Source: an uncultured Clostridia bacterium (GTDB lineage: Bacteria; Bacillota; Clostridia; Oscillospirales; CAG-272). Taken from it: a stretch of DNA of 64,000 nucleotides. Below are positions 1 through 63,589 of the stretch, piece by piece (position 1 is the stretch's first letter; every line of letters begins with the position of its first letter). The translations under genes were made by a program, and so were the position numbers. The stretch spans positions 3,278 through 67,277 of the forward strand of contig CALYAD010000055.1 in assembly GCA_944393415.1 (NCBI GenBank), given 5' to 3'. The notes below the pieces were generated by a model. The model searched no databases. It saw nothing but the letters and a program-made list of their open reading frames with translations, and was not told the origin of the DNA.

Positions 1-3000
1 AAAACGTGTGTTGCGGTTCCGGCTTCCGCAGGGGAGTGAGCGGAATATGAGGATAAAAACGCGGGGGTTTTTAAAAGTGAGGAATTGTCGTTTTCTTGAT
101 AAGTGATGTCATAGGGAAGAGCGATACCGCTTTGCTTTGCCATTTCATTTATCGAGGCAAAATTATCGGCTTCCTCCGAAGAGTCAAGTATCTGAGGATA
201 AAGCCTTGAAACGGAAAGCTTTGCGGGAATCCGGGCTGATCGGCTGTGAGGATAAACAAACGACAGGCGTTTATCAAGAAGTTCGTACAGATTGCCGTAT
301 TCGTAAGCGTCGGTCAAAGCATCCGTATCAGCAATTTGTTTGGTACTTGAAGCGGTATTATCATTATCATTGCTTAATATATCTTTAGCGGCATAAACGG
401 TTACCGTATATCTGGGAGAAAGTTCAGTAGGACGGCTGAGAGCGGTAAGTATCCACTCAAGGTAGGAATTTTTAGTGATGTAATTCATCGGATGACCGGA
501 TGACGCGTATAAGCTGCAGGAACGCTGAAGCTTTTCAAAATCCCTATGGCTCGCGCAGATATAAAGTGCGCTTTTGGCGCGGGTAAGCGCTACGTATAGA
601 ACTCTCATTTCCTCGTCTGTCTGTTGCAGCTCTTTTTCGGCTGCAAGCGCGAGACGGTACGGGGAATCGCTTGAGGTTAGCCGCAGCTCATCCTTTATAC
701 GCATTGCGGCTCCCATGCGCGGATCTGTTATAACTGCTTTTTTCAGGTCGTCGCGGTTGAATTTATGCGAGGTGCCGCAGACAAAACAATGCTCAAATTC
801 CAGTCCCTTTGACTGGTGTATACTCATTATTCTTACACCGGAAGCCTCAGACGATGCGCCGGACGGCGAATTTCCGCTTTCTGTAATATGACGAACTCTT
901 TCAAGAAAGGAATAAATATCGGTCTTGCCTGATAAGGTAAAATCACGCGCAAGGTCATACAGCGTCAGAAGATTGGCACGCCGAAGAGCAGCGACGGCTT
1001 CAGAGGTGTCAATTTTGTCGTAAATCAGCGAAAAGAAGGATGTCTCGGTATAGATCTGCCAAAGCACGCGGTCAACAGTATTTTCAGCGGCAAACGCTCG
1101 CGCGGCAGTAAAAAAGGAAAGAAATCGCTTTCCCTTTTCAAATTCTTTGCTTTCGGTATACCTTGTCAGAGATTCAAAAAGCGGAATATCCGGATATTCT
1201 GTTCGTATGGATATAAGCTCGTTCATAGTAATACCGAAAACCGGGCTTTTCAGAGCTCCGGCAAGAAAAATATCGCGGTAAGGATTATCTATACAATTCA
1301 GCAGGCAAAGGGCAAGCTGTATTTCGGGAGCGCCAAAAAGCTCTGAGCCTTTATCGGTGCTTACCGGAACCGAGTGTTTTCGAAGCGCCTCCTCAAATAC
1401 CGGGGCCGCCGAGCGTGTACTGCGCAGCAGTATTGCGATATCGGAAGGGTTCGCCCCGTCGTTTATAAGAGCGACTATTCTTTTCGCGGTCATTTCCGCT
1501 TCGAGATGATAGCTGCCGGAGCTTTCGGAAATATTTTCCTCATCACCGTCCGCTTCCTTATCAGGTATTTCGGCTATCAGAATTTTTACCTCCGGAGCGG
1601 AAGCGGATAGGACTTTCCCGCATATGAGGCGGTCGCTTTTTGAGTAGGGAATACGGTATGAAAGCGGAGCAGAGTCCGCCGGAGTGAAAAAAAGCGCGTC
1701 TGAGACCGCGTTTACAAACTCGGCCACCGGCTTTTCGGATCGAAAATTCTCCGAAAGAAATACCGTAGCGTTTTCTTTAGCGGTTTCATTATTATTAAGC
1801 TCGCTTTCGGGAGAATACTCGGTAAATATTCTGCGGTAATGAGAGAAAATAGAGGGCATAGCGCCTCTGAAGGCATAGATGCTTTGCTTTATATCTCCAA
1901 CCATGAAGAGTGGAGTATTTACCGACAGCGCTTCAAAAATATTATTCTGAAGCGGGTTGACGTCCTGGTATTCATCGACAAATATCTCGTCATAAGCTTC
2001 GGAAATACGGAAGGCAAGGGGAGAGATACTGTAGTCAGGTAAGTATAAAAGCCGGAGGGTATAGTGTTCAAGATCGTTGTAGTCGAGCACGGCTCTTGCC
2101 TGCTTGTGATCCGAGAAACGCCGGTCAAATTCTTTTAACAGCTCGATAAGCGAACGCGATACGGAGACGGTGGCATCTCTTAAATAAATAATATCGTCGT
2201 CTGAAAAGCAAAAATATTTTTCGCTCAGCTCTGTCAGCTTTTTATTTGCGTAGCCTCTGACATTTTCCTTGTAAAACTCGCCTTCGTCCGTTTTGAACTC
2301 AGCCCTGACTATACCTATCCTTGTGCTTTGACGCTCCGAAAGCGTTTCGCGCACATTTCGGTAATCGTGAGTTTGGGCGCTATTTTTCAGTTTTATTATA
2401 AAATTAAGCTCTGATCTGAAAACCGGTGTACAGGCACCCGAGTACTTTTCGTCAGTTTCAAAATAATCTATGGCGGTAGTGTACAGACCGATAAGGTAAT
2501 CGCACAGCAAGGCTACTCTGTTGCAGAGGATCATAGCGTAAGGGTCTCCGAGATTCAGTGACCCGCTCGACATGACATCGGCGCTTTTTTCCCAATCTTC
2601 AAACCCGTGAGGCTGGTTTTTTATGCTGTCGTACATTGAAAGAAGCAGGTCTGACAGCCGGTCGTCTCTGTCGGATATAAAATTCTCGGCAAACGTCGCA
2701 AAGTCCGGTATAGGAGGAAATAGCCCGGCGTATGCGGTTTCCAGCAGATCCTCCATGACCTCAGAGCGCATTGCCCTTGTTTCCGTTTCGTCAGCTACCC
2801 TCATTGAGGCGCTCAGCCCGAGAGCGTGAAAATTGTTTTTTATGAGCGAAAGACAAAGCCCGTGTATAGTGCTTATCTGAGCGGAAGGGAGCTTTATAAG
2901 CTGATCGTGCAGGCGTTTATTATTCGGTTCTTTTTCTGATGCTTCACGTATCGCGCGCTCAATCTTTGCTCTGAGCTCCTCGGCAGCTGAACGGGTGAAG

Positions 3001-9856: not shown

Positions 9857-9893
9857 TTTATGTCATTCCCCCTTACGATCAAACAGCGTCATG
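9857..9893 (-). promoter_or_regulatory. Partial type-1 leader module (hairpin, SD, decoy AUG, start)
   Basis: RNA sense reads ACGCUGUUUGAUCGUAAGGGGGAAUGACAUAAAAUGAAU. This matches ACGCUGAUUUAGCGUAAGAAAGGAAUGGUCAUAAAAAUGAAU at 34839-34880. Confidence 0.55.
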
Positions 9894-16247: not shown

Positions 16248-16404
16248 ATCTTCGTAAATTATGCGGTAATCCTTTTATCGCGTAAGCAAAAGAATAAATT
16301 TTTAAAGCTGCCTTTTGTGACTTATGCGTCGAAAATTCGGTGCGGATATGACACAGGCAAAAAACAAAACGCATATAAAGCGTAAGAAAGGAATGGCCAT
16401 AACT
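16248..16404 (+). promoter_or_regulatory. Full-length type-1 leader module (copy F)
   Basis: Blocks: AUCGCGUAAGC, then GUGACUUAUGCGUCGAAAAUUCGGUGCGG, then AAAACGCAUAUAAAGCGUAAGAAAGGAAUGGCCAUAACUAUG. These align block by block with 34839-34967 and 63346-63470. Confidence 0.65.
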
Positions 16405-18153
16405 ATGACTGATATGGTAAACACGGCATATGTAAACTATGAAATGTTCGGCGCCAAGGGCGACGGCGTTACCGACGATATCGAAGCTATCAAGGCTGCG
16501 CATGATTATGCAAATCTGCACAAAATAGACGTGAAGACCAACCCGAAGGCAACATACTATATAGGACCGCGTCCGATAACCGTAACTGTCGCCACAAACG
16601 TTGACTTCAATTCATCGAAATTCATCATCGACGACAGCAAGGTCAAGGTAGAGGAGCGGGGAGCGAGCCTTTTCAGGATAGTATCCGAAAAGGAGCCTAT
16701 AAAACTGGATATTCCGTATGTAAAGAAAAATCAGATGAGGCTTGACGTTCAGCTGCCCTGTAACTGTTATGTCAAAATAGACAACTCAGAGAAAAAACAG
16801 TTTATACGCTTTGGACTAAATCAGAACAACGGCTCCGCCCAGACGGACTGCTTTGTAGTTGACGGTACCGGATATATACTGAATAAAGTGATATGGGATT
16901 TTGAAAAGGTAACAAACGCGGTGGCATATCCTATAGACGAGACCATACTCACGGTAAAAGGCGGAATATTCAATATCATAGCAAACCAAGCCGAATCAAA
17001 GTATACATATTTCGGACGTAATATTTCCGTTACCCGTTCCAATACGGTCATAGACGGTCTTACTCATATTGTTACGGGAGAGCTTGACCACGGCGCGCCG
17101 TATTCCGGCTTTATAACCGTTGACAGATGCGCATATGTGACGGTCAAAAACTGCCATCTGTCACCGAGAAAAATATATGAGACGATAGGCTCTGCCGGCA
17201 AGCCGGTTTCCATGGGCTCGTACGCTCTTACAGGCGGCTCCGCGGTTAATCTGAAGCTTATAAATATAAAACAGAATAATATAATGGACAGAACGCATTG
17301 GGGGCTTATGGCGACCAATCACTGCAAGGACTTGTACGTAGAGGACTGTGTTATGTCCAGATTCGACGCCCACGAAAACGTCGCTAATCTTACCATCAGA
17401 AATACGGTTCTCGGGCATCAGTGCTTTAACGCAATCGGTCACGGAATAATGCTTGTAGAAAACGTGACTGCGTACGGAAACTCCTTTCTGAATCTTCGTG
17501 GGGATTACGGAAGCACCTGGGACGGAGACATTATTTTCAGAAACAATACCTGGTACCCTAACGCCGCGGCAAAAGCCCCATCCTTTATCGGAGGCTCAAA
17601 CGCCGGAGACCATGACTTCGGATTTCCGTGTTATATACCCCATAAGATTACCATCGACGGTCTGCTTATTTGCGACGGATGCGCAAATGAAGGATATGTC
17701 GGAGCCTCGCTCTTCAACTGCAGTCCCTCGGTAATGAACGGATCCGGGGCGCCGGATTATAACGATAAGTCGATAGCGTATCCGTATTTCTTTGCGGAGG
17801 AAGTAACGCTTCGCAACATCAGAACAGAGAGCGGAAAGGGATTTGCCGTCTTTTCAGCAGATACCAAAAACTGTTACTGTACGCAAAAGCATAAAAAAGA
17901 CAAATATTCGTTTGTCCCGAATTTCCGCTGTAAGATTGAGGATACTGAAATGCCGGAAAAAAGTCTTGTTCCGGAAACCTCGCTTTCTTTAGAGGATTTC
18001 GGTGAAAATTACCACCTGCTTCCGAGCTTTGAGCTGAAAAATTGCAGAAAGGTAACGGTAAATACCAATGCTCCCGCCATAATTAAATATACCGATTGCA
18101 CACTGAGCGGAGAAATGACCGGAGATAATCTGAAGATAGTATCCCTGCAATGA
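16405..18153 (+). CDS. Right-handed beta-helix protein (pectate-lyase superfamily / GH28-related)
   Basis: FGAKGDGVTDDIEAIKAAHDYA near the N-terminus is the Pectate_lyase_3 hallmark. The start was set at the second ATG of the conserved leader; ORF-track residues 1-27 translate the leader. Confidence 0.65.
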   Translation: MTDMVNTAYVNYEMFGAKGDGVTDDIEAIKAAHDYANLHKIDVKTNPKATYYIGPRPITVTVATNVDFNSSKFIIDDSKVKVEERGASLFRIVSEKEPIKLDIPYVKKNQMRLDVQLPCNCYVKIDNSEKKQFIRFGLNQNNGSAQTDCFVVDGTGYILNKVIWDFEKVTNAVAYPIDETILTVKGGIFNIIANQAESKYTYFGRNISVTRSNTVIDGLTHIVTGELDHGAPYSGFITVDRCAYVTVKNCHLSPRKIYETIGSAGKPVSMGSYALTGGSAVNLKLINIKQNNIMDRTHWGLMATNHCKDLYVEDCVMSRFDAHENVANLTIRNTVLGHQCFNAIGHGIMLVENVTAYGNSFLNLRGDYGSTWDGDIIFRNNTWYPNAAAKAPSFIGGSNAGDHDFGFPCYIPHKITIDGLLICDGCANEGYVGASLFNCSPSVMNGSGAPDYNDKSIAYPYFFAEEVTLRNIRTESGKGFAVFSADTKNCYCTQKHKKDKYSFVPNFRCKIEDTEMPEKSLVPETSLSLEDFGENYHLLPSFELKNCRKVTVNTNAPAIIKYTDCTLSGEMTGDNLKIVSLQ

Positions 18154-26743: not shown

Positions 26744-26778
26744 AAAATAATGGTATTCAGAAAGGTATGGTCAAAATA

Positions 26779-27489
26779 ATGAATTTAAAGATCTTCGCGG
26801 AGCTTTTCAGAAAATTCAGAGACGGTTTACTCGGAAGCAAGGAAGTATTTTATATTAACGGCGCGGATACGCTGCCACCTCCGCTGAGCGCCGAGGAGGA
26901 AGCAAAAGTCATAGAAAGACTCCCGGACGATCAGAGCGCCAAGGCTACGCTCGTAGAGCACAATCTGCGACTCGTTGTCTACATAGCCAAAAAGTTCGAG
27001 AATATAGGAACGGATATCGAGGACATAATATCAATCGGAACCATTGGGCTGATGAAGGCCGTTAACACGTATAATCCCGATAAGAATATAAAGCTGGCTA
27101 CATATGCTTCACGATGTATTGAAAACGAAATACTGATGTATATAAGGAAAAACAGCGGTCAGAGGTCGGAAGTATCGATAGAGGAGCCGCTTAATACTGA
27201 CTGGGACGGCAACGAGCTTTTGCTTTCCGATATACTCGGAGGCGATGACGACGCGGTATACAAAGAGCTTGAGGACGAGGAGGATAAAAAGACTATTCGT
27301 CAGGCGCTGCAGGGACTGGACGAACGGGAACGTGAGATCATAGTACTTCGTTTCGGGCTCGACGGAAGCGACAGGGAGCTGACACAGAAGGAGGTCGCCG
27401 ACATGCTCGGTATCTCGCAGTCGTACATCTCGCGTCTGGAAAAAAGGATAATGACTCGCCTCAGACACGAAATGGAAAATAAAATATAG
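26779..27489 (+). CDS. sigE: Pro-sigma-E, sporulation sigma factor
   Basis: [17 protein letters not shown]...[64 protein letters not shown] is near-identical in pattern to B. subtilis SigE. The gene ends in TAG. Confidence 0.9.
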
Positions 27490-30402: not shown

Positions 30403-30494
30403 AAGTCAACGCTAATAGCTTATAAAAATAACTGTCTCTTCCGCGCCGCGGATAATAATGCTTGCTTTGGCATGAGAGAAAGGAACGGTCAATT

Positions 30495-32159
30495 ATGCTT
30501 ACAGATATTGAAATAGCTCAGTCCGTTAAACTTAAAAAGATAACCGATATCGCGGAAACCGCTGGGATTCCCGAGGAAGCGCTTGAGCTTTATGGAAATT
30601 ATAAGGCAAAGATAGACGTTAATAAGATCGGAAGCTCAGGTAAAAAAGGGAAGCTTGTACTTGTAACCGCCATAACTCCGACTCCGGCCGGAGAAGGTAA
30701 GACTACGACTACCATAGGACTTGCCGACGGACTCAGGAGGATAGGTAAAAACACGGTTGTTGCCCTTCGGGAGCCGTCGCTGGGACCGGTATTCGGGATC
30801 AAAGGCGGAGCAGCGGGCGGCGGATATGCCCAGGTAGTACCGATGGAGGATATAAACCTTCATTTTACCGGTGATTTTCACGCGATAGGAGCGGCGAACA
30901 ATCTGCTGGCGGCCATGCTGGATAATCATATATATCAGGGCAATGCCCTTAATATTGATCCTCGGAGGATAGTATGGAAGCGCTGTGTCGATATGAACGA
31001 CAGACAACTCCGTTTTATCACCGACGGGCTTGGGGGAAGAGTAAACGGTGTACCGCGTGAGGACGGATATGATATTACGGTCGCTTCCGAAATAATGGCG
31101 GTACTGTGTCTTTCGGGCTCTGTTTCCGATCTTAAGGAGCGGCTCGGCCGCGTGATCGTAGCGTATACCTTTGATGAGAAGCCTGTCACGGCTAAGGACC
31201 TGAGGGCAAACGGCGCCATGGCGGCGCTGCTTAAGGACGCGATAAAGCCTAATCTTGTTCAGACGCTTGAGGGTACGCCAGCAATAATACATGGAGGTCC
31301 CTTCGCAAATATAGCTCACGGATGTAATTCGGTTATAGCTACCCGCACTGCTATGGCGCTCAGTGACTATGCCGTAACGGAAGCCGGCTTCGGCGCCGAT
31401 CTCGGGGCAGAAAAATTTTTTGATATAAAATGCCGGGTTTCGGGTCTTAAGCCGGACGCCGTGGTGATTGTCGCAACCGTCAGGGCTCTGAAAATGCACG
31501 GAGGTCTGTCTAAAAACGAGCTTTCACACGAAAATCTTGAGGCGCTTGAAAAGGGTATTCCCAATCTGCTTCGGCATGTTTCAAATATAAAGAACGTATT
31601 TGGTCTTCCGTCTGTCGTAGCGGTCAACCGTTTTCCGACCGATACCGATAAGGAGCTTGAAATGATAATCGAAAAATGCCGCGCGCTCGGAGTCAACGTA
31701 TGTCTGTCCGAGGTCTGGAGCAAGGGCGGAGAAGGCGGTACGGAGCTTGCGCGTGAGGTTGTGCGTCTGTGCGATACGGAAAACGATTTTAAATTATGCT
31801 ATCCGGATAGCGCGTCTATTGAAGAGAAGATCGAAGCGGTTGTAAAAAGGGTCTACGGCGGAGACGGTGTCGTATATCTTCCCTCAGCAAAAAAGCAGCT
31901 TGAGCAATTGAAGGAGCTTGGCTTCGGCTATATGCCTGTCTGCATGGCTAAAACACAGTACAGCTTTTCCGATGATCCCGCAAAGCTATGCGCTCCCAAA
32001 GGTTTCACGGTAACCGTAAAGAATATAAGGGTAAGTGCCGGAGCCGGTTTTGTGGTTGCGCTTACCGGAGATATCATGACTATGCCGGGACTTCCGAAGG
32101 TACCTGCCGCGGAGCGGATCGACGTCGATGAAAACGGTAAAATAAGCGGACTTTTCTGA
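30495..32159 (+). CDS. fhs: Formate-tetrahydrofolate ligase
   Basis: [47 protein letters not shown] pattern. The start was set at ATG 30495 behind GAAAGGA. Confidence 0.95.
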
Positions 32160-34253: not shown

Positions 34254-34838
34254 CTATATATCCGTTTCTATAAAATGAATATCAGAATTATTCCAGTATT
34301 TATTATAAACCCTATCTTCTTGACCGTCAAGGTTTAATTGATACATACGGAAAGTAACCGGTATGTTTTTTGGCTGCCATTGCTCTTCGTATGAATATCT
34401 GTATTTCATACCTAATTTTTTCATTACATTACCGCTTCTTGGATTATTTATATCATGTGTAGCAGTAATATATGGAAATCCATCTTTTTTCAGCTGCTCA
34501 ATAACCGCCCTGCCGGCTTCTGTAATAATCCCCTGATGCCAAAACTCTTTGCGTAATCCGTAACCAAAATCATAACCATCCTCTGTACTTACATTGACAT
34601 ATCCTATAGGGAGATTATCTTTTAAGCAAACTGCGTAAATATACGCGTTTCCTTGGTCGTATTTACTTACAAATTGGTTTTCATAAAAAAGTATTGCTTC
34701 TTTCATTGTTTTTATGGGAAACCACGGTAAGAAAGTATTGACTTCTTTATCGCTAAAAATTTCATAGACCGCTTTCATATCGTCTATAGTAAATTTTCTT
34801 AAAATAAGTCTTTCGGTCTCAAGGCTCGGGATATTCAT
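34254..34838 (-). CDS. GNAT-family N-acetyltransferase (RimJ/RimL-like)
   Basis: MNIPSLETERLILRKFTIDDMKAVYEIFSD. The start is the second ATG of the conserved leader. Confidence 0.85.
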   Translation of the reverse strand: MNIPSLETERLILRKFTIDDMKAVYEIFSDKEVNTFLPWFPIKTMKEAILFYENQFVSKYDQGNAYIYAVCLKDNLPIGYVNVSTEDGYDFGYGLRKEFWHQGIITEAGRAVIEQLKKDGFPYITATHDINNPRSGNVMKKLGMKYRYSYEEQWQPKNIPVTFRMYQLNLDGQEDRVYNKYWNNSDIHFIETDI

Positions 34839-34967
34839 TTTTATGACCATTCCTTTCTTACGCTAAATCAGCGTTTTGTGCGGTCATCCCTTGGCAAATC
34901 GACACCGTTCTTTTGGTGCCGATGAAGTCACGCTTTGACGCCGCAGACTTACGCGATTAAATAACCA
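34839..34967 (-). promoter_or_regulatory. Full-length type-1 leader module (copy A), filling the whole GH116-GNAT spacer
   Basis: RNA sense reads AAUCGCGUAAGUCUGCGGCGUCAAAGCGUGACUUCAUCGGCACCAAAAGAACGGUGUCGAUUUGCCAAGGGAUGACCGCACAAAACGCUGAUUUAGCGUAAGAAAGGAAUGGUCAUAAAAAUG. Confidence 0.65.
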
Positions 34968-37505
34968 TTATATTATTATCTCTATACCGTCGCGTATACT
35001 TTTTTCGGCAAATATGATATCTCCGTTAAATAACTTGAAATCATATCTTTTTCCATCGATACGCAACTCTTTTATATCGGAAATGAACGGAAGCTTCAGC
35101 GTATGCAGATTCAAGGTACCGCATAGAATGTTTATTTTCACGCTTTTATCTGTTATTATAACATTTCCCCAGCCGGTACCGATACTCCATATACACCGGT
35201 ATTCCCCGGCTTTTGTCAATGGAGAAAAACCAATGGTCTTACGCGGAAGATCAAAATAAAAACCGCTGAAAATCGGTATAAGCGCAAAGCTGGCCATTGA
35301 ACGGGCATAGTTACTTCCGCATTCTATTTCATTGTAGGGATTGCGGTTTTGTCCGTTATATCTGTTTCTCACGGCACGTACAATATCAACGCCCTCATTT
35401 ATTTTTCCTTCGCTTATAAGAAGTCCGGCGAGCTGATATTCAAAGCCGTTCATGCTTTCCTCACAGTATGGAATAGGGATGGATGGTTTGCGCACGCCTT
35501 CGGGATAATCACAGATTATAGCGGCGGACTCGTCGTTCAGAGCGAATATACGCCATGGATTTGAAAATTCGCGCACCGAGGACTTGAAATTATTTTTGTA
35601 CAGGCAGTCGAGTGCAATTTCGGTCTGTTTTTTATCAAATATTCTTCCCAGTCCGCATATATTCGCATGCCACTGACCGCATAGCTGGTCAATTTCACAG
35701 CCCTCTCCTATCTGATATTTTATTTCCCCGCTTTCGCTGTTCCAGTAAACGTCAGAGCAATCGAAGCGGTCAGTCAGAGCCTTGTCTGTAAGATTTATCT
35801 TCTGTATAAAATATTTGCCGTTGAAAAGGTTGTCACGGCACCATGCGTAGCCTTTTTCATATATCGACTCGTATTCTTCGCGGGCTTCGGTGTCGCCGAG
35901 ATATTCCGCCATTAACGCCGCCGCTCTTAAAGCGGCGAAATAGAAGCCCTGAAGCCATGAGGAGGGTCCGAAAAGCTCCATGTCGAGCGTATGATGCTGT
36001 CTGCCTTCAAGTACTCCGTCGCGGTCGCGATCCCAAGCGTCCTTGTTATCATCGCTCCAGGCGAAGGCGAGCATCCTTTTAACCTTATCCCAGATTTCCG
36101 AAAGCCAGACATCGTCTCCTGAGAGCTTCCATTCTCGATAAATTTTAATTATAGTACCCATATGTCCGTCGACACAGGAACGGTAAAAGCCTTTTGGTCT
36201 GCCGAGCGGAAGCTTTACACGGAAATCCGTACCGCCATACTCGTCAAGGGCGTAATTTAACTCAACGTTTCGCATCGAGCGTTCAAGCTCCGGAAACAGA
36301 AAGCATAGCGCATAAGCGTAATTCCAGACATGCTGACAGCTTCCTTCGCACGAGCCTTCCAGCTCATGCACGCCCTCCCAGCCGTAAAACTCACCGTTTT
36401 CCAGTCTCCATACGGTAGGGGATTTAAGAACGGACAGGGTAGAGGAGACAGCGTCCAAAACCGCACTGTCAAGAGTTGACGCAAAAAGCTCGTTTTTGAA
36501 CAGCAGCGTCCGATTATATAAATCATCCCAATGCCTAAGGGAGTATTCGGCACTGTCAAAAGAGCTTGCGAAGCGTTTGACGTAATAGTTTTTCCAGATG
36601 ACATCCTTACCGTTTTCATCCTTTAATGGCGACCAGTAATTATAATTATTCGGATAGTTCCATGAGATTACTAAACGGACATTTTCTTTTGAGCCGCTTT
36701 CGGCCCTGAGCCTTTTATAAACCGAGCAGGTATCGTTTTTGCCGGGAGAGTCGTAATGTCGGTCTGTAAATCCGGCGTCTGACGATAATTCGTTCCGAAA
36801 CATTACAACAGTATCCTGCCAGCCTCCTCGATACCAGTACTCCTGAGTGCCCGCATTGTCCCCGAGGGTTGCGATCGTGAGGTCACCGTATCCGATTTCG
36901 TCAGCGTCGGTTACCGCCGCGTTTATCAGCTTTACCGCTTTAATATCGCCTGAGCTGACGTCACAGTTTTCAGAGCTTTCAAAAGGATTGCATACGGATA
37001 GCACGGCGGTATAAGCAATATCGTTATCGGTGTCATTTATAAACTCAATATTAAAAAACGCCGCAGGAATACCGGAATTTTCGGCGTCAAGCGGGATGAA
37101 AGGGTTGAATGCCGTAAGCACTATCTTTCCGGGGAAATTATCGTCTGAAAAAGTGAGTTTTGCGATAGGAAATTCACCTTCAAAAATGACATTTTTGAAG
37201 TGCGGAAATCCGCACATCGTCATTGAGGAGGGACCAAAACCGTATCCGGTAAAATTTCTTTTAGAGTACTGACCCACAAAATCCTTGGTAAGATCGCCGT
37301 TCAGAACTTTTATGTATTTCTTTCCCTTTGTTTCAGCTTTCACCGAAATATGCGAATAACCGTTTATACTGCCCTTGTTAGGGCGATTGAAGATTTCCCA
37401 GTCGCATAAGCGTCCGTTGCCGGCAATACCGATACATCCGGTGCCTATCCCTCCGAGCGGAAAGGAAATTTCCCTTAAGCTTTCACCTGTGTATATCACT
37501 TGCAT
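34968..37505 (-). CDS. GH116-family beta-glucosidase (GBA2 type), no signal peptide
   Basis: MQVIYTGESLREISFPLGGIGTGCIGIAGNGRLCDWEIFNRPNKGS is the GH116 N-domain pattern. The start was set at ATG 37505 behind GGGAGG; the ORF-track extension covers the promoter. Confidence 0.85.
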   Translation of the reverse strand: MQVIYTGESLREISFPLGGIGTGCIGIAGNGRLCDWEIFNRPNKGSINGYSHISVKAETKGKKYIKVLNGDLTKDFVGQYSKRNFTGYGFGPSSMTMCGFPHFKNVIFEGEFPIAKLTFSDDNFPGKIVLTAFNPFIPLDAENSGIPAAFFNIEFINDTDNDIAYTAVLSVCNPFESSENCDVSSGDIKAVKLINAAVTDADEIGYGDLTIATLGDNAGTQEYWYRGGWQDTVVMFRNELSSDAGFTDRHYDSPGKNDTCSVYKRLRAESGSKENVRLVISWNYPNNYNYWSPLKDENGKDVIWKNYYVKRFASSFDSAEYSLRHWDDLYNRTLLFKNELFASTLDSAVLDAVSSTLSVLKSPTVWRLENGEFYGWEGVHELEGSCEGSCQHVWNYAYALCFLFPELERSMRNVELNYALDEYGGTDFRVKLPLGRPKGFYRSCVDGHMGTIIKIYREWKLSGDDVWLSEIWDKVKRMLAFAWSDDNKDAWDRDRDGVLEGRQHHTLDMELFGPSSWLQGFYFAALRAAALMAEYLGDTEAREEYESIYEKGYAWCRDNLFNGKYFIQKINLTDKALTDRFDCSDVYWNSESGEIKYQIGEGCEIDQLCGQWHANICGLGRIFDKKQTEIALDCLYKNNFKSSVREFSNPWRIFALNDESAAIICDYPEGVRKPSIPIPYCEESMNGFEYQLAGLLISEGKINEGVDIVRAVRNRYNGQNRNPYNEIECGSNYARSMASFALIPIFSGFYFDLPRKTIGFSPLTKAGEYRCIWSIGTGWGNVIITDKSVKINILCGTLNLHTLKLPFISDIKELRIDGKRYDFKLFNGDIIFAEKSIRDGIEIII

Positions 37506-37793: not shown

Positions 37794-37830
37794 ATATTGT
37801 ACAAATTATTTTTTATTTTTTGTACAATAT
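37794..37830. promoter_or_regulatory. Twin TTGTACAA palindromes (operator-like)
   Basis: ATATTGTACAAA (37794-37805) and TTTGTACAATAT (37819-37830) form a perfect 12-bp inverted repeat. The palindrome centres are 23 bp apart. The repeat ends 6 bp upstream of a -35 box. Confidence 0.5.
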
Positions 37831-37864: not shown

Positions 37865-37960
37865 GTAGTAAACCTAAATTGTCATAAATAAACGGTTATG
37901 GTAAATTCGGGTGAAAAACGCACAAACTATATTTGGCGTAAGAAAGGGATGGTCATAAAA

Positions 37961-39811
37961 ATGAACCGCAGAATTTTCGCAGAAAAGAATTACAATATCA
38001 CCGGCAAAGTAGTCCCGTATGACAAATTCAGGCTTTTTATTGATAAGCCGCAGGGATTTACTATAAATCCAGAGCATTTCCCGAAGATCATTGAGCGCGC
38101 CGAGGCATTGCTGAATAAGGAGTATCCTCAGCTCATCGCGTCCGACTATATGATGTTCAAGCGCGACGGAAACCGCTCTATCTATGAGGGAAAATATTTT
38201 CCGAGAAGAGGCGATATTCTGACGCTTGCCTTAGCGGAATATGTTGAGAAGAAAGGCAGATTCACGGATAAGATAATTGATGTTCTCTGGCTTATTCTTG
38301 AAGAGACCTCATGGGTCATACCGGCTCACAACCCAAGCAAGCCGGGCGTAAACTGCTGTCTGCCGTACGCTTATACGGGAAAGGTGGACTACATAGACCT
38401 GTTCGCCGCAACCACCGGAGCAACGCTTGCCTGGATCTATTATCTCTGCAAGGATGAATTTGACAATGTCACCGGACTAATAAATGAAAGACTTCTGTTT
38501 GAGCTGAATCGTCGTATAGTTCAGCCTTATCTTGACCCGGTAGCCTGCGGGGATAAAATGTGGTGGACCGGAGTAAGAGGGAACACTGTCAATAACTGGT
38601 GTCCATGGATTGTCTCCAATATACTTACGGTATGCGCTCTTACAGTCAAGGATCTGCCCACAAGAGAGGCCATAGTCCGAAACGCTCTGCCGATGCTCGA
38701 TAACTTTACCTCTGTTTACCATGACGACGGAGGCTGCGACGAAGGTCCAAGCTACTGGAACGCCGCGGGAGGCGCACTCTTCAATGCCTGTGAGGTGCTT
38801 TATGACCTTACAAACGGATATGTCAACGTCTTTGAGGATGATCTGATGCGTAAGATGGGCGAGTATGAGGTCAAGGTAGTGGTCAACGGTAACCGTCTGC
38901 TCAATTTCGCGGACTCTCCGGCAAAGGTAAACCCATCTCCCATTATGCTTTACCAGTGGGGCGTTTTGTCCAAGTCAGAGATGATGAGAACGTACGGACA
39001 GAACAAACTCAACGGAGGACTTACAGGCGTCGGAATAGATTCAAGCATGCCATACCGCAGCTTTAAGTTTTTGGTCGAGCCGAGACTTCCGAAGTGCGAT
39101 TTTGTGGCTCCTACAAAATTCTGGCTTGACGGTATCATCATCGCCGGTACACGCGAGACAAGCGCGACGGATAAAGGTCTTTATCTTGCGTTCAAGGGAG
39201 GAAATAACGCGGAGAGCCACAATCACAACGATATCGGAACGCTGGTCGTGTTTGCCGACGGCAAGCCTATATTCCTCGACGCCGGCTCAGGAAGATATAC
39301 CAGACGTACCTTCAGCGGAGAGAGATACACAATCTGGGCAATGCGCTCTGATTACCATAATGTAGCGACGATCAACGGAGTCGTTCAGAAGGGCGGACGT
39401 CAGGAATATTCCTGTGATCATGTTTATGACGAGACCACCGGTAAGCTGACGATGAATCTGAAAAACGCTTATCCCAAGGAAGCGGGTATTGAGGCTTACT
39501 CAAGGAGCGCTGTACTTGAAAACTCTGTAATTACCATAACTGACAATATTACTCTCGAAAAAGACGGAGACATAATGTTCAGCTACATATGCGATGAAAA
39601 GCCCACAGAGGTAAATAATGACAGCTTTGTTCTTCACGGAAGGACTGTAACTTTTGATCCGGAGCTTGAATACGCTGTAGAGGAGCTTGACAAGACATGG
39701 CCTGAAGTAGCGGGTATTCCAGGAAACTGGGATGTTGATGTACTTTACAGGGTAACGCTTAAAAACAAATCTCCGATTAAGAGTAAGACTTATGTTATGA
39801 CTGTCAGATAA
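37961..39811 (+). CDS. Heparinase II/III-like (polysaccharide-lyase-like) protein, no signal peptide
   Basis: NNAESHNHNDIGTLVVFADGKPIFLDAGSGRYT...RSDYHNVATING is the heparinase II/III C-domain pattern. The start is ATG 37961, behind the conserved type-1 translation-initiation block. Confidence 0.75.
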   Translation: MNRRIFAEKNYNITGKVVPYDKFRLFIDKPQGFTINPEHFPKIIERAEALLNKEYPQLIASDYMMFKRDGNRSIYEGKYFPRRGDILTLALAEYVEKKGRFTDKIIDVLWLILEETSWVIPAHNPSKPGVNCCLPYAYTGKVDYIDLFAATTGATLAWIYYLCKDEFDNVTGLINERLLFELNRRIVQPYLDPVACGDKMWWTGVRGNTVNNWCPWIVSNILTVCALTVKDLPTREAIVRNALPMLDNFTSVYHDDGGCDEGPSYWNAAGGALFNACEVLYDLTNGYVNVFEDDLMRKMGEYEVKVVVNGNRLLNFADSPAKVNPSPIMLYQWGVLSKSEMMRTYGQNKLNGGLTGVGIDSSMPYRSFKFLVEPRLPKCDFVAPTKFWLDGIIIAGTRETSATDKGLYLAFKGGNNAESHNHNDIGTLVVFADGKPIFLDAGSGRYTRRTFSGERYTIWAMRSDYHNVATINGVVQKGGRQEYSCDHVYDETTGKLTMNLKNAYPKEAGIEAYSRSAVLENSVITITDNITLEKDGDIMFSYICDEKPTEVNNDSFVLHGRTVTFDPELEYAVEELDKTWPEVAGIPGNWDVDVLYRVTLKNKSPIKSKTYVMTVR

Positions 39812-50596: not shown

Positions 50597-50873
50597 AAAA
50601 TTGACCTTTTTCCCGCCGCCTGTAATATTTATAGCAGGCGGAGTTTGAAAATTAAATTTCAAACCGTTCCTTTCTTACTTGATTTTCTCAATGCATTTAC
50701 AAGTATTTTTTACAGACCGGGACTTATTATTCACGTTTACTGAAATTTACTGAGTCGAAAACAAAAAATTCCTTATCAAAAAAATTGAAAAGGAACTTTT
50801 TGAGATATTATAAAGCGAGTTTCGTATTATATAAACATTACTGATATTATATTTTACGAAACGGTCGTTATCA

Positions 50874-54522: not shown

Positions 54523-54702
54523 ATATAGTCTTGCTGATAATACCGGGAACCTGACAGATAGTGTAAACAGGATTAAAAAGTTGATCCATACCCGTTATTT
54601 AAGCTTGCCTTGATTTCTCACTATATAAAAATAAAAGGGCTTACGCCCTCAAATCAGCGAAATTTATCCGTTCGTCAGAAAAACAGATGTAGCTTTGGGC
54701 GT

Positions 54703-62430: not shown

Positions 62431-63345
62431 TTAAGTCCTTTCAAGGTCGCTTTTAGAATAATAGAGCTTTAACTCAGTTATCATTTCCTCGATACCTACG
62501 GCGCTTTCATAGCCTGTATCCCTTTTGAGCTTATCGAGAGATACCTCCCAGTTGTAGTCGTCCGCGGGATCCGGCTGACCCGAATATACTATCCTTGAGG
62601 AGGAGCCGGTAAGCTCTACGCAAAGCTCCGCCAATCTTTTGTTAGATATGAGATTATGGCTTGCGAGGTTATAGACACCCTGAGCGTTAGGTGATATGAC
62701 GGCTTTATATATAGCCTGCGCAATATCGGTAACGTGAACGTAGGTCTGACGCCTTGTTCCTTTGCCCAGAAGAACGATATCTTCGCCTGCCAGAGCTTTT
62801 TGGACAAAAACGGGAAGTATGGTTTTAGGATTCATTCTTGGTCCGACTGGAGCGGTTATTCTGTAGCTGACGGTGCGTACGCCGTAAGTGTAGAACGCAT
62901 AATTTGCCAGAAGCTCCTGCATTACTTTGGTGCAATGATAAACCGTCGGAGGCTTAAGCGGATGGCTCTCCGTAATGGGAAGCTCTGACGGACTGCCTAT
63001 TACGGGAAGACTTGAAAGCTGTACGAAAACGCCTATATTTTTATCTCTGCAGAGCTCAAGCAATCTTTGAGCTCCGACGCAGTTATTTTTGATTACTTCA
63101 ATGGTATGCGGTTCTTTCCGCATATCCGCCGCAAGATGAACTATGGCGTCTAATTTGCCGACGGAGATTTTTTCAAATATATGTCCGGTGTCCTCGGTGT
63201 ACAGATCACAGAAAACATATTCGTCCGTATCCGATGTGGAATTTGCCGTTCTGTCAAGTCCGATAACAAAGCATCCCTTGTTTTTCAGCCATTTTACAAC
63301 ATGACTTCCGATAAAGCCGTTAGATCCTGTTACTAATATATTCAT
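62431..63345 (-). CDS. NAD-dependent epimerase/dehydratase (extended SDR)
   Basis: MNILVTGSNGFIGSHVV Rossmann motif and the catalytic YHCTK. Confidence 0.85.
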   Translation of the reverse strand: MNILVTGSNGFIGSHVVKWLKNKGCFVIGLDRTANSTSDTDEYVFCDLYTEDTGHIFEKISVGKLDAIVHLAADMRKEPHTIEVIKNNCVGAQRLLELCRDKNIGVFVQLSSLPVIGSPSELPITESHPLKPPTVYHCTKVMQELLANYAFYTYGVRTVSYRITAPVGPRMNPKTILPVFVQKALAGEDIVLLGKGTRRQTYVHVTDIAQAIYKAVISPNAQGVYNLASHNLISNKRLAELCVELTGSSSRIVYSGQPDPADDYNWEVSLDKLKRDTGYESAVGIEEMITELKLYYSKSDLERT

Positions 63346-63470
63346 GTTTATGACCGTTCCTTCCTTACGCTAAATCAGCGTTTCGTGCGGTTAAATCGGT
63401 GCCATGCTTTTGGCGCCGAAGTCACAATAAAGCCGGCGTGAAGCCACGCTTTGAAAATTTATTTTCAAAC
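63346..63470 (-). promoter_or_regulatory. Full-length type-1 leader module (copy B)
   Basis: RNA sense reads UUUGAAAAUAAAUUUUCAAAGCGUGGCUUCACGCCGGCUUUAUUGUGACUUCGGCGCCAAAAGCAUGGCACCGAUUUAACCGCACGAAACGCUGAUUUAGCGUAAGGAAGGAACGGUCAUAAACAUG. Confidence 0.65.
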
Positions 63471-63560
63471 TTTACCTCATGCCGTTTTTGAGTGGTTTCC
63501 CTATTTTTGTTATGAAAGATGTATACATAAAAAAATTTAAAATGTATAATTATTTTATTC

Positions 63561-63589
63561 ATTATACTATATTCTTACAGTAATGTCAA
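63561..63589 (-). promoter_or_regulatory. Consensus sigma-A promoter of the glycan cluster
   Basis: Minus-strand TTGACA (63589-63584), a 17-nt spacer, then TATAAT (63566-63561). Confidence 0.7.

What the first reader, a model, noticed from the sequence alone, without database searches (positions are those of the whole stretch)
34839..34967. Type-1 leader: a conserved, structured 110-150-nt 5' region shared by unrelated genes; candidate novel cis-regulatory RNA or portable expression cassette
Three full copies occur: A at 34839-34967 (GNAT), F at 16248-16404 (beta-helix protein) and B at 63346-63470 (the epimerase heading the glycan cluster). Four or more 3' fragments occur at 9857-9893 (GH99-like), 37921-37960 (heparinase-like), 26757-26781 (sigE), 54636-54659 (no gene) and, more weakly, 30478-30497 (fhs). 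The blocks are collinear in RNA sense.
- (1) CGCGUAAG, present in A and F.
- (2) GUGACUU.
- (3) A hairpin with an A-rich loop whose stem changes while pairing is kept: A has AUCGGCACC/GGUGUCGAU, B has UCGGCGCC/GGCACCGA and F has GCGUCG/CGGUGC.
- (4) CCGCAC(A/G)AAACGC.
- (5) A 4-5 bp hairpin, ACGCU-GAUUU-AGCGU, whose 3' arm touches the SD.
- (6) AAG(A/G)AAGGA-AUGGUCAUAAA(A/C)-AUGAAU.
The coding sequences downstream are unrelated, so this is not gene duplication. Identity of 24-26 nt runs is far beyond chance in 64 kb. Most host genes are carbohydrate-active. I do not recognise the motif as any Rfam riboswitch. Possible interpretations are a ligand- or protein-responsive leader defining a regulon, or a mobile promoter-leader-RBS cassette.
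Basis: seen in the sequence. Interest (0 to 1): 0.75.

Follow-up and report, generated by a model that had tools for sequence, protein, structure and literature searches.

The report
Inserted repeat carrying a replacement ribosome-binding site
The shared "leader" is a small non-coding repeat element of some human-gut Oscillospiraceae that sits just upstream of start codons, pushes the gene's own ribosome-binding site about 100 nt upstream and supplies a new one, so it is an inserted element and not a riboswitch.

Summary
Copies A (34836-34967, -), B (63343-63470, -), F (16277-16404, +) and H (37915-37960, +) share far more sequence than chance allows, always in sense and ending 2 nt before the ATG. 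No Rfam family matches.

The riboswitch or regulon reading is not supported. The sequence is a modular, hairpin-rich element of 48-133 nt. Its 5' end is TTTGAAAAT-N4-ATTTTCAAA. Its 3' end is GCGTAAG-AAAGGA(SD)-AYGGTCATAA. Copies carry different subsets of the internal modules.

Evidence that it is an insertion:
- One operon junction in MAG SIG673 holds a clean 114-nt copy with no target-site duplication. Four orthologous junctions are empty.
- Three orthologues of B's epimerase lack it.
- One copy lies downstream of a complete ZTP riboswitch, terminator-like hairpin and native SD.
- 9 of 12 copies with the 5' palindrome have an unrelated native SD just outside the left end (P = 6e-9).

Host genes are heterogeneous (gltX, pflB, Clp ATPase, oppD, GNAT and others).

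I infer that genes are translated from the element's own unpaired SD. How the element spreads is unknown. It has neither terminal inverted repeats nor a target duplication, so it is not a classical MITE.

The parts
34839..34967 (-). Copy A. It fills the whole gap between the GH116 gene (stop at 34968-34970) and the GNAT gene (ATG at 34836-34838). It lacks the 5' palindrome and starts with the TCGCGTAAG block (34948-34956).
34898..34923 (-). Copy A, internal hairpin M3: AUCGGCACC / GGUGUCGAU with an A-rich loop.
34841..34863 (-). Copy A, 3' module M6: GCGTAAG-AAAGGA(SD)-ATGGTCATAA. The SD is at 34851-34856, 12 nt before the ATG.
63348..63469 (-). Copy B, a full-length element from TTTGAAAAT to GGTCATAA, in the 5' UTR of the epimerase gene (ATG at 63343-63345).
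63449..63470 (-). Copy B, 5' palindrome M1: GTTTGAAAATAAATTTTCAAAG, with 9-nt arms and a 4-nt loop.
63396..63419 (-). Copy B, hairpin M3: UCGGCGCC / GGCACCGA.
63475..63478 (-). Displaced native SD (GAGG) just outside the left end of copy B. Without the element it would lie 7 nt from the ATG.
   Evidence: empty orthologous sites
63561..63589 (-). Consensus promoter-like site (TTGACA-17-TATAAT, 12 of 12) upstream of copy B. It places B inside a 5' UTR of about 210 nt.
16277..16404 (+). Copy F. It has the ATCGCGTAAG block (16277-16286), a degenerate palindrome (16288-16307), a hairpin (16325-16344) and M6 (16380-16402). The ATG is at 16405.
37915..37960 (+). Copy H, only the 3' part (M4 remnant, M5 and M6), upstream of the heparinase-like gene (ATG at 37961).
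9857..9893 (-). Degenerate 3' copy (GACGCTGTTTGATCGTAAGGGGGAATGACATAAA) before the WbsX-family gene.
30464..30494 (+). Weak M6-like initiation region of fhs (AGAAAGGAACGGTCAATT-ATG).
   Evidence: E = 0.1
26759..26778 (+). Weak M6-like initiation region of the sigma-factor gene (AGAAAGGTATGGTCAAAATA-ATG).
   Evidence: E = 0.77
50599..50680 (-). HPr leader. An M6-like 5' half (GTAAGAAAGGAACGG) is interrupted by an M1-like palindrome (50643-50664) plus a GC-rich hairpin, then GTCAATTTT-ATG. It is a related composite and possibly a nested insertion.
   Evidence: (I5)

Best explanation
The sequence is a small, non-coding, orientation-specific insertion element. It is found in a few lineages of human-gut Oscillospiraceae.

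Anatomy. A full copy is about 90-133 nt and runs from 5'-TTTGAAAAT-N4-ATTTTCAAA (a 9-bp hairpin) to GGTCATAA-3'. Between the ends lie optional hairpin modules (GCGTGACTTCACGC; TCGGCGCC-loop-GGCACCGA; TTTGCC-AAG-GGCAAA). These are followed by a short hairpin (ACGC-loop-GCGT) and the module GCGTAAG-AAAGGA-AYGGTCATAA.

Position. The element lies 1-2 nt upstream of an ATG. In most copies this ATG is the start codon of a gene, and the left end lies 3-7 nt downstream of that gene's own Shine-Dalgarno sequence. No target-site duplication is made.

Consequence. The native SD ends up roughly 50-130 nt away from the start codon, depending on the size of the copy. I infer that the gene is then translated from the element's own SD. 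That SD (AAGAAAGGA) is the normal SD type of this genome, sits 12 nt from the ATG, and is predicted to stay single-stranded between local hairpins. The element would thus act as a portable leader-plus-RBS that is co-transcribed with its host gene.

Shown here: the insertion itself, its boundaries, the absence of a duplication, the fixed orientation, the displaced native SDs and the conserved pairing of a hairpin.

Inferred, not shown: translation from the element's SD, and any effect on expression or mRNA stability. The way it spreads is unknown.
For: 1. Filled versus empty site. In SIG673 the oppC-like/oppD junction carries 114 nt (TTTGAAAATG...GGAATGGTCATAA). The orthologous locus L041 has about 90% identical flanks over 1.9 kb and reads ..GGGAGGTAATTAG|ATATGCC.. 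with nothing inserted and nothing duplicated. L037, L038/L040 and L042 are also empty, with 6-12 nt junctions.
2. Orthologues of B's epimerase in three related species lack the element. They read cggaggtaaactATG, ggcatgggggatttatATG and gaggagattcttcttATG. B's flanks read ggcatgaggtaaa|element|acATG.
3. In L007 a ZTP riboswitch (RF01750, 41.8 bits against a gathering score of 39), a terminator-like hairpin that I read in the sequence, and a native AAGGAGG all precede the element. The gene downstream is pflB.
4. 9 of 12 copies that carry the palindrome have a GGAG, GAGG or AGGA at -13 to -3 from the left junction. The background frequency is 6.9%, giving a binomial P of 6e-9. These SDs differ in sequence, so they belong to the host site. 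Removing the element restores spacings of 5-9 nt.
5. In all 17 independent copies an ATG follows CATAA by 1-2 nt, although the search pattern held no ATG. 15 of these are real gene starts.
6. Copies in different genomes are 82-97% identical over alignments of 43-141 nt. About 139 kb from related genomes that gave no pattern hit holds no copy at E <= 1.
7. Hairpin M3 keeps its pairing through compensatory changes. The palindrome shows a U-A to C-G switch.
8. The SD region is unpaired in the predicted folds and in the alignment consensus structure. AGAAAGGA is the usual SD of this genome.
Against: - No mobilising enzyme or autonomous partner was found, and no transposition event was observed. 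Only one filled/empty pair has alignable flanks on both sides.
- Copy numbers per genome look low: 3-4 exact-pattern hits in each of the two MAGs that carry it.
- Copies A and F have no clear displaced SD, and H is truncated.
- The position next to start codons could come from selection after insertion and not from targeting. AAGWWATG-like sites are mostly not at gene starts (1 of 13 in this window).
- A conserved, covarying hairpin and strict sense orientation would also fit a functional RNA.
- Translation from the element's SD is untested, and the 12-nt spacing is longer than the 6-9 nt typical of this genome.
Confidence: 0.7

Rival explanations
1. It is a cis-regulatory leader RNA, either a riboswitch or a binding site for a regulatory protein, that defines a regulon. 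Its presence upstream of unrelated genes would reflect common control.
For: - It is always in sense orientation in a 5' UTR or an intercistronic region.
- Its hairpins keep their pairing, with compensatory changes.
- Loop and junction sequences are conserved.
- Full-length copies fold better than shuffled sequence, with z = -4.4 and -4.7 for L004 and L016.
- No known Rfam family claims it.
Against: - Modules are lost in many combinations. L002 keeps only the palindrome and the RBS module. L005 and L007 lack the main hairpin. L010 lacks the palindrome.
- Host genes are unrelated: GNAT, epimerase, gltX, pflB, Clp ATPase, ddh, oppD, HAD, SDR and rhamnulokinase.
- Orthologues in sister species lack it.
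- It sits downstream of an independent riboswitch and native SD in L007.
- The SD is never sequestered in predicted folds.
- Copies in different genomes are far more alike than ancient regulatory leaders usually are (the comparison is from my own knowledge).
Confidence: 0.1
2. It is not a transposing element. It is a favoured initiation-region cassette that spreads between genes by homologous or microhomology-mediated recombination and gene conversion, using the generic SD and the A-rich ATG context as anchors.
For: - The 3' module is found alone, with unrelated upstream sequence, in L003 and L013. More degenerate 3' matches occur at the fhs and sigma-factor genes and at 9857-9893.
- Graded degenerate versions occur at other gene starts in SIG673 and in L018.
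- The same heparinase-like gene (99.9% identical) has two different upstream contexts, with the breakpoint inside the element (L012 against the window).
- There are no terminal inverted repeats and no target duplication.
Against: - The left junction shows no homology between the element and the host site.
- The 114-nt insertion in L008 has sharp ends with no shared microhomology beyond a single base.
- The left flank ends in G in all 12 copies listed and the right flank reads two bases, mostly A or T, then ATG. This looks like site preference.
- L012 could be a chimeric metagenome contig.
Confidence: 0.17
3. It is a chance resemblance among strong ribosome-binding sites of an AT-rich genome.
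For: AGAAAGGA is the general SD of this genome. The weakest claimed fragments (the sigma-factor gene, fhs and 54636-54659) are close to this level.
Against: - Probes of 31 nt and 24 nt gave matches with zero expected in shuffles.
- Similarity extends 90-130 nt upstream of the SD.
- The same sequence recurs in independent MAGs and metagenomes.
Confidence: 0.01

Closest known systems
BOX elements of Streptococcus pneumoniae (also RUP and SPRITE)
   Same: They are small (under 200 bp), non-coding, dispersed and co-transcribed with neighbouring genes. They are predicted to fold into stem-loops. They are modular, with internal modules (boxB) absent or repeated without disturbing the rest. They are restricted to a narrow clade (PMC3049150).
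   Different: BOX and RUP have terminal inverted repeats and make target-site duplications. They are over-represented between convergent genes and show no fixed distance to start codons (PMC3049150). The element here has no inverted termini and made no duplication in the one filled/empty pair. It is always in sense, ends 1-2 nt before an ATG and carries an SD. Sequence similarity to BOX was not tested.
bcr1-bcr3 and other interspersed repeats of the Bacillus cereus group
   Same: They are repeats in Firmicutes that are often transcribed as parts of 5' UTRs or operon intergenic regions. Some have conserved secondary structure, and bcr3 has a possible effect on mRNA half-life (PMC3446304).
   Different: bcr1 is described as MITE-like. 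From my own knowledge it is flanked by a duplicated TTTAT. No bcr family is reported in that paper to sit between the SD and the start codon or to supply the SD.
IS200/IS605-derived palindrome-associated elements (PATEs) and REP sequences
   Same: From my own knowledge, these have no terminal inverted repeats and no target duplication. Insertion is strand-specific and occurs 3' of a short sequence, and there are hairpins near the ends. Here no duplication was seen, no inverted termini are present, a hairpin sits at the 5' end, and the left flank ends in G in all 12 copies listed.
   Different: The two end hairpins here are unrelated in sequence. The 5' hairpin starts at the first base, leaving no room for a guide sequence. 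The 3' hairpin lies 28 nt from the end. No TnpA or RAYT partner was seen.
Correia elements (CREE) of Neisseria
   Same: From my own knowledge, these are small repeats that land close to genes, are co-transcribed and can change the expression of the neighbouring gene.
   Different: From my own knowledge, Correia elements have inverted termini, duplicate a TA target and occur in both orientations. They contribute promoters or RNase III sites and not a ribosome-binding site abutting the start codon.
Engineered RBS insulators (bicistronic designs, RiboJ-type leaders)
   Same: This is a functional analogy only. A standard leader with local structure presents an unpaired SD at a fixed distance from any start codon, independent of upstream sequence (from my own knowledge).
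   Different: Those are synthetic. The element here is natural, dispersed and polymorphic between genomes.

Membership tests
Any described RNA family (Rfam 15: riboswitches, leaders, sRNAs) | Covariance-model match at or near the family's gathering score | tested here: not met
   The window at gathering threshold gave only 2 tRNAs. Permissive scans of copies A and B and of seven loci with full copies gave no hit on the element. The best on-element score was 20.5 bits to CRISPR-DR47 against a gathering score of 39.
Riboswitch or regulon leader (generic) | A conserved core present in all members, with host genes sharing a pathway or ligand | tested here: not met
   Only the RBS module is universal, and internal modules are lost in many combinations. 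Host genes are unrelated.
Riboswitch or regulon leader (generic) | An expression platform that can sequester the SD or form a terminator | tested here: not met
   The SD is unpaired in all six minimum-free-energy folds and in the alignment consensus. The terminator scans found no terminator-like site around copies A or F. The only site inside copy B is a weak 5-pair hairpin, the M2 module.
Classical MITE | Terminal inverted repeats | tested here: not met
   The 5' end is TTTGAAAATAAATTTTC. [quoted passage not shown] I compared them by eye and saw no similarity.
Classical MITE | Target-site duplication flanking the insertion | tested here: not met
   L008 against L041: the empty site reads TTAG|ATATG and the filled site TTAG[114 nt]ATATG, with no duplicated bases.
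Classical MITE | Small, non-coding, multi-copy, with presence/absence differences between related genomes | tested here: met
   Copies are 48-133 nt. There are 4 clear copies in this window and 3-4 exact-pattern hits in each of two MAGs. Orthologous sites are empty.
Classical MITE | A related autonomous IS with the same ends | not testable with these tools
   No complete genome of a carrier was available. No copy in about 355 kb of fetched loci has an ORF between the end modules.
IS200/IS605-type PATE or REP | No inverted termini, no target duplication, strand-specific insertion next to a short conserved sequence | tested here: inconclusive
   No duplication and no inverted termini were seen. 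The left flank ends in G in all 12 copies listed, usually as WAAG. There is only one true empty site.
IS200/IS605-type PATE or REP | Similar imperfect hairpins near both ends, recognised by one TnpA | tested here: not met
   The 5' hairpin (TTTGAAAAT/ATTTTCAAA) and the 3' hairpin (ACGC/GCGT) are unrelated.
Pneumococcal BOX | Sequence homology to boxA, boxB or boxC | not tested
   No BOX model was on hand. Only the modular layout is alike (PMC3049150).

The most novel reading that the evidence does not exclude
The element homes specifically to translation-initiation regions. On this reading its mobilisation machinery recognises the stretch between an SD and an ATG (junction consensus WAAG|WW-ATG). 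It carries a replacement SD so that the host gene stays translated. That would make it a selfish element adapted to live inside the ribosome-binding site, where it is always transcribed and its insertion costs the host little. I found no description of such a strategy for bacterial repeats in the searches I ran.
Probability: 0.35. Interest if true: 0.8.

Novelty: new variant of a known kind. Interest (0 to 1): 0.6.

Why it matters
- If the reading is right, natural genomes contain a portable, self-insulating RBS cassette. It can be dropped in front of unrelated genes, including gltX, pflB, a Clp ATPase gene and an operon-internal oppD, without abolishing them.
- It would be a new way for a small repeat to persist. 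It would also be a new source of expression differences between strains of gut Clostridia.
- It would cause start-codon mis-annotation. Several callers extended genes to the ATG inside AAGGAATGG.
- It may promote rearrangements, as the L012 variant suggests.
- It is a caution for motif hunters. A structured, covarying 5' UTR motif shared by unrelated genes need not be a riboswitch.

Tried and rejected
- **Known RNA family.** Four cmscan runs found nothing on the element.
- **Leader peptide.** An SD followed by TTG at the palindrome would encode MKINFQ... I rejected this. The reading frame and length after six codons are not conserved. TTG becomes CTG in L005, L011 and L016. In L005 and L016 a compensating change keeps the palindrome, which points to pairing and not coding. 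The SDs in front are non-homologous host sequence.
- **Extended pairing of the RBS module with the 16S rRNA 3' end.** Only AGAAAGGA fits the generic Firmicutes tail (from my own knowledge). The window holds no rRNA gene to test the rest.
- **CodY, cre or other operator in the palindrome.** I found no convincing match from memory and did not pursue it.
- **Integron-like cassettes.** Copies are scattered, lie on both strands and have no partner site downstream of the genes.
- **Phage or plasmid origin.** There was no match in viral contigs, phage records or plasmid records.
- **Literature search for the literal sequences.** No paper holds them.
- **Strain-level polymorphism at copy A.** All 11 same-species contigs carry it.
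- **Look-ups that gave nothing.** An exact-protein look-up for the heparinase-like gene found nothing. P0252, a longer OppD homologue, is not a filled site.
- **L014 against L015.** This allele comparison had too few differences to compare the element with its flanks.

Full report

Yes. A 31-nt probe taken from copy A (GCGTAAGAAAGGAATGGTCATAAAAATGAAT) matches at 34833-34863 (-), 37936-37966 (+) and 63340-63370 (-) with 0-3 mismatches. No match occurred in 100 shuffles. A 16-mer probe adds 16388-16403 (+), with 6 hits against 0.77 expected. A 24-mer from the upstream part links A and B. The repeat finder reports A and B as 93% identical over 54 nt, A and F as 84% over 45 nt, and A and H as 94% over 35 nt.

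All copies are in sense with the gene downstream. The similarity stops at the ATG. The downstream proteins are unrelated: a GNAT acetyltransferase, an NAD-dependent epimerase, a protein with no Pfam match, a heparinase II/III-like protein and a WbsX-family protein.

Of the weaker fragments:
- 9857-9893 is a recognisable degenerate 3' copy (read; it did not reach E <= 10 in the profile search).
- The fhs and sigma-factor sites are marginal, with nhmmer E = 0.1 and 0.77.
- 54636-54659 is an intrinsic-terminator-like hairpin on the minus strand and not a member.

**2. Anatomy**

I scanned the species-representative genome collection and the metagenome collection with GCGTAAGRAAGGRAYGGYCATAA. The pattern contains no ATG. 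The scans gave 8 and 9 loci. All but one come from two Oscillospiraceae/Eubacteriales MAGs (SIG673 and CO.O35 bin 337) and from metagenome contigs, several of them labelled human gut. The viral scan gave none.

Aligned together, the copies show a modular mosaic:
- **M1:** a palindrome, TTTGAAAAT-N4-ATTTTCAAA. It is present in B at 63449-63470.
- **M2:** a small hairpin GCGTGACTTCACGC, or instead CACGCCTTTTGTGA.
- **M3:** the hairpin TCGGCGCC-AAAAGCAY-GGCRYCGA.
- **M4:** TTTGCC-AAG-GGCAAA followed by CCGCAC.
- **M5:** AAAACGC-TGATTT-GGCGT.
- **M6:** AAG-AAAGGA-AYGGTCATAA, then 1-2 variable bases, then ATG.

Only M6 is present in every copy, which partly follows from the search pattern. L002 has M1 joined almost directly to M6 (48 nt). 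L005 and L007 lack M3. L010 lacks M1 and M4. L012 has half of M3. A lacks M1. H keeps only M4'-M6.

AGAAAGGA is the ordinary SD of this genome and normally sits 6-9 nt from the start codon. In the element it sits 12 nt away.

**3. It is an insertion**

(a) *A filled and an empty site.* In SIG673 (L008) the element lies between an oppC-like permease gene and oppD. The permease stop codon sits inside GGGAGGTAA. The orthologous locus L041 (OppD 95% identical in protein) has flanks about 90% identical over 1.9 kb. It differs by one clean 114-nt gap, which is exactly TTTGAAAATG...GGAATGGTCATAA. The empty site reads GGTAATTAG|ATATGCC and no base is duplicated. Three further orthologous loci have junctions of 6-12 nt. 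Parsimony therefore favours gain in the SIG673 lineage.

(b) *Orthologues of B's epimerase.* Orthologues at 73-83% protein identity in three related species have no element. They read cggaggtaaactATG, ggcatgggggatttatATG and gaggagattcttcttATG. B reads ggcatgaggtaaa|element|acATG.

(c) *A copy downstream of a riboswitch.* In L007 a ZTP riboswitch (RF01750, 41.8 bits against a gathering score of 39) lies upstream of the element. I also read a terminator-like hairpin and a native AAGGAGG there. The gene downstream is pyruvate formate-lyase. The native leader was already complete before the element arrived.

(d) *Displaced native SDs.* 9 of 12 copies with the palindrome have GGAG, GAGG or AGGA at -13 to -3 from the left junction. 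The background frequency is 6.9%, which gives P = 6e-9. These SDs differ in sequence and so are host DNA. Deleting the element restores SD-to-ATG spacings of 5-9 nt.

(e) *Restricted distribution.* About 139 kb from related genomes that gave no pattern hit holds no copy at E <= 1. One heavily degenerate copy is visible in L018 near 870-930.

**4. Position relative to the ATG**

In all 17 independent copies an ATG follows CATAA by 1-2 nt. In 15 of them it opens the real gene. In L009 and L013 it opens a 12- or 9-codon mini-ORF. That mini-ORF overlaps the real start 20-24 nt further on, and the real start has its own SD.

The L008/L041 pair shows that the ATG is host sequence. There is therefore either a site preference (junction consensus WAAG|WW-ATG) or strong selection. 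Sites matching AAGWWATG are mostly not gene starts: 1 of 13 in this window. The sequence motif alone cannot explain the placement. Loss of insertions inside coding regions would account for part of it. I cannot separate targeting from selection with these data.

**5. Structure**

M3 is a real conserved hairpin. 96% of cells are paired and 3 of 8 pairs change on both sides. Sliding the partner strand drops pairing to 21-45%.

RNAalifold recovers M1 and M3 and finds a U-A to C-G switch in M1. Full-length copies fold better than shuffles, with z = -4.4 for L004 and -4.7 for L016. Shorter copies do not. In L016 a long-range helix (GCGUUUUGUG with UACAAAACGC) encloses M3 and M4.

In every fold the SD is single-stranded. 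Conserved pairing fits an RNA role such as stability, insulation of the SD or processing. It equally fits a DNA or RNA structure needed for spread. The data do not distinguish these.

**6. Why not a riboswitch or regulon leader**

- No Rfam match.
- No universal core apart from the RBS module.
- Heterogeneous host genes: an SDR oxidoreductase, diaminopimelate dehydrogenase, a HAD phosphatase, glutamate-tRNA ligase, a Clp ATPase, pyruvate formate-lyase, rhamnulokinase and a carboxymuconolactone-decarboxylase-family protein. OppD is an ABC transporter ATP-binding protein. The window genes are listed.
- Orthologues lack it.
- Copies in different genomes are 82-97% identical.
- The SD is never sequestered in predicted folds.

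I keep this rival at about 0.1, because strict sense orientation and covariation are what a functional RNA would also show.

**7. How it most likely works**

Shown: the element is inserted DNA with defined ends. It has no terminal inverted repeats and made no target duplication. Its orientation is fixed and it ends 1-2 nt before an ATG. It displaces the native SD.

Inferred: it is transcribed from host promoters. Promoter-like sites lie upstream of B (12 of 12), F (11 of 12) and H, while A and L008 sit inside operons. The host gene is then translated from the element's SD.

Unknown: the agent of spread. A recombination or gene-conversion route remains possible (rival at about 0.17). Three observations bear on it:
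- The RBS module occurs alone in L003 and L013.
- Degenerate versions occur at other gene starts.
- The heparinase-like gene, 99.9% identical over 828 bp, has a different upstream context in contig L012, with the breakpoint inside the element. Three longer same-species contigs that span this gene (L028-L030) look like the window. L012 may be a real rearrangement at the repeat or an assembly chimera.

**8. Comparison with known elements**

The nearest kinds are the small interspersed repeats of Firmicutes.
- Pneumococcal BOX, RUP and SPRITE are modular, folded and co-transcribed. They have inverted termini and target duplications and are enriched between convergent genes (PMC3049150).
- The B. 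cereus bcr families are often part of UTRs (PMC3446304).

The element fails the two structural criteria of a classical MITE: it has no inverted termini and made no duplication. It shares the lack of inverted termini and of a duplication with IS200/IS605-type derivatives, but its two end hairpins are unrelated to each other.

Sitting between the SD and the start codon and bringing a replacement SD is not described in the papers I could search. This absence is weak evidence, because the library is incomplete.

**9. Verdict**

The feature is real. The riboswitch reading is not supported. The "portable leader-RBS cassette" reading is largely right, apart from the promoter. I rate it a new variant of a known kind (small non-autonomous dispersed repeats) and give it an interest of 0.6. 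The most novel reading still open is true homing to translation-initiation regions, at a probability of about 0.35.

Noticed in passing
L007 2271-2366 (+), element at 2440-2532: A ZTP (pfl-motif) riboswitch lies upstream of a pyruvate formate-lyase gene. The repeat element is inserted between the riboswitch's native SD and the start codon. This is a natural case of an element placed between a riboswitch and the gene it controls.
   Followed up: partly
window 50599-50680 (-), HPr (ptsH-like) leader: The sequence GTAAGAAAGGAACGG, which matches the 5' half of the RBS module, is followed by an M1-like palindrome (50643-50664), a GC-rich hairpin (CCGCCTG...CAGGCGG) and then GTCAATTTT-ATG. It looks like a shorter palindrome-led element nested inside an older RBS module, or a second related family.
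   Followed up: partly
L012 1-1714 against window 37931 onward: The heparinase-like gene, 99.9% identical over 828 bp, follows GNAT and DUF1989-like genes and a fuller element in contig L012. In the window and in three longer same-species contigs it follows a divergent tRNA-Val and promoter region. The breakpoint lies inside the element. This is either a rearrangement at the repeat or an assembly chimera.
   Followed up: partly
L006 6741-6763 (+), Oscillospiraceae bacterium PP1C4: An exact match to the 23-nt pattern forms the last codons of a permease gene (...SRVRKGWS*). Its stop codon overlaps the start of the next gene, an ABC ATPase by its N-terminal sequence (TAATG). About 0.5 chance hits are expected in a collection of this size (my estimate), so it may be coincidence, or a hint at where the RBS module came from.
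   Followed up: no
window 34860-34874 (-) and 63367-63381 (-): CTGATTTAGCGTAAG in copies A and B holds TGA, TAG and TAA, one in each reading frame, just upstream of the element's SD. Any ribosome arriving from upstream would stop there. In other copies only the TAA is kept.
   Followed up: partly
window 37797-37830 (+): Two copies of the palindrome TTGTACAA lie 17 nt apart in the AT-rich region between tRNA-Val and the heparinase-like gene, next to divergent promoter-like sites. This is a possible operator.
   Followed up: no
window 63561-63589 (-): A perfect consensus sigma-70-type promoter (TTGACA-17-TATAAT, 12 of 12) heads the glycan-synthesis cluster.
   Followed up: no
L004 5398-5668 (+): A T-box leader match at 91.6 bits lies just under the gathering score of 93, about 4 kb downstream of the element-bearing gltX gene and unrelated to the element.
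   Followed up: no
L018 about 870-930 (+): A heavily reduced copy (GTCAAAGCG...CCGCACAAGCAAAGGAAACGGTCATAGAA-ATG) lies between an AMP-binding enzyme gene and the next gene in a related species that otherwise lacks the element. This suggests the family is older than the well-preserved copies.
   Followed up: partly
window 34839-34850, 37949-37960 and 16393-16404: The ATG inside AAGGAATGGTCATAAAA-ATG is in frame with the real start. ORF listings and some public gene calls therefore add four residues (MVIK or MAIT). One example is the 308-aa P0001 against the 304-aa product in the window.
   Followed up: partly
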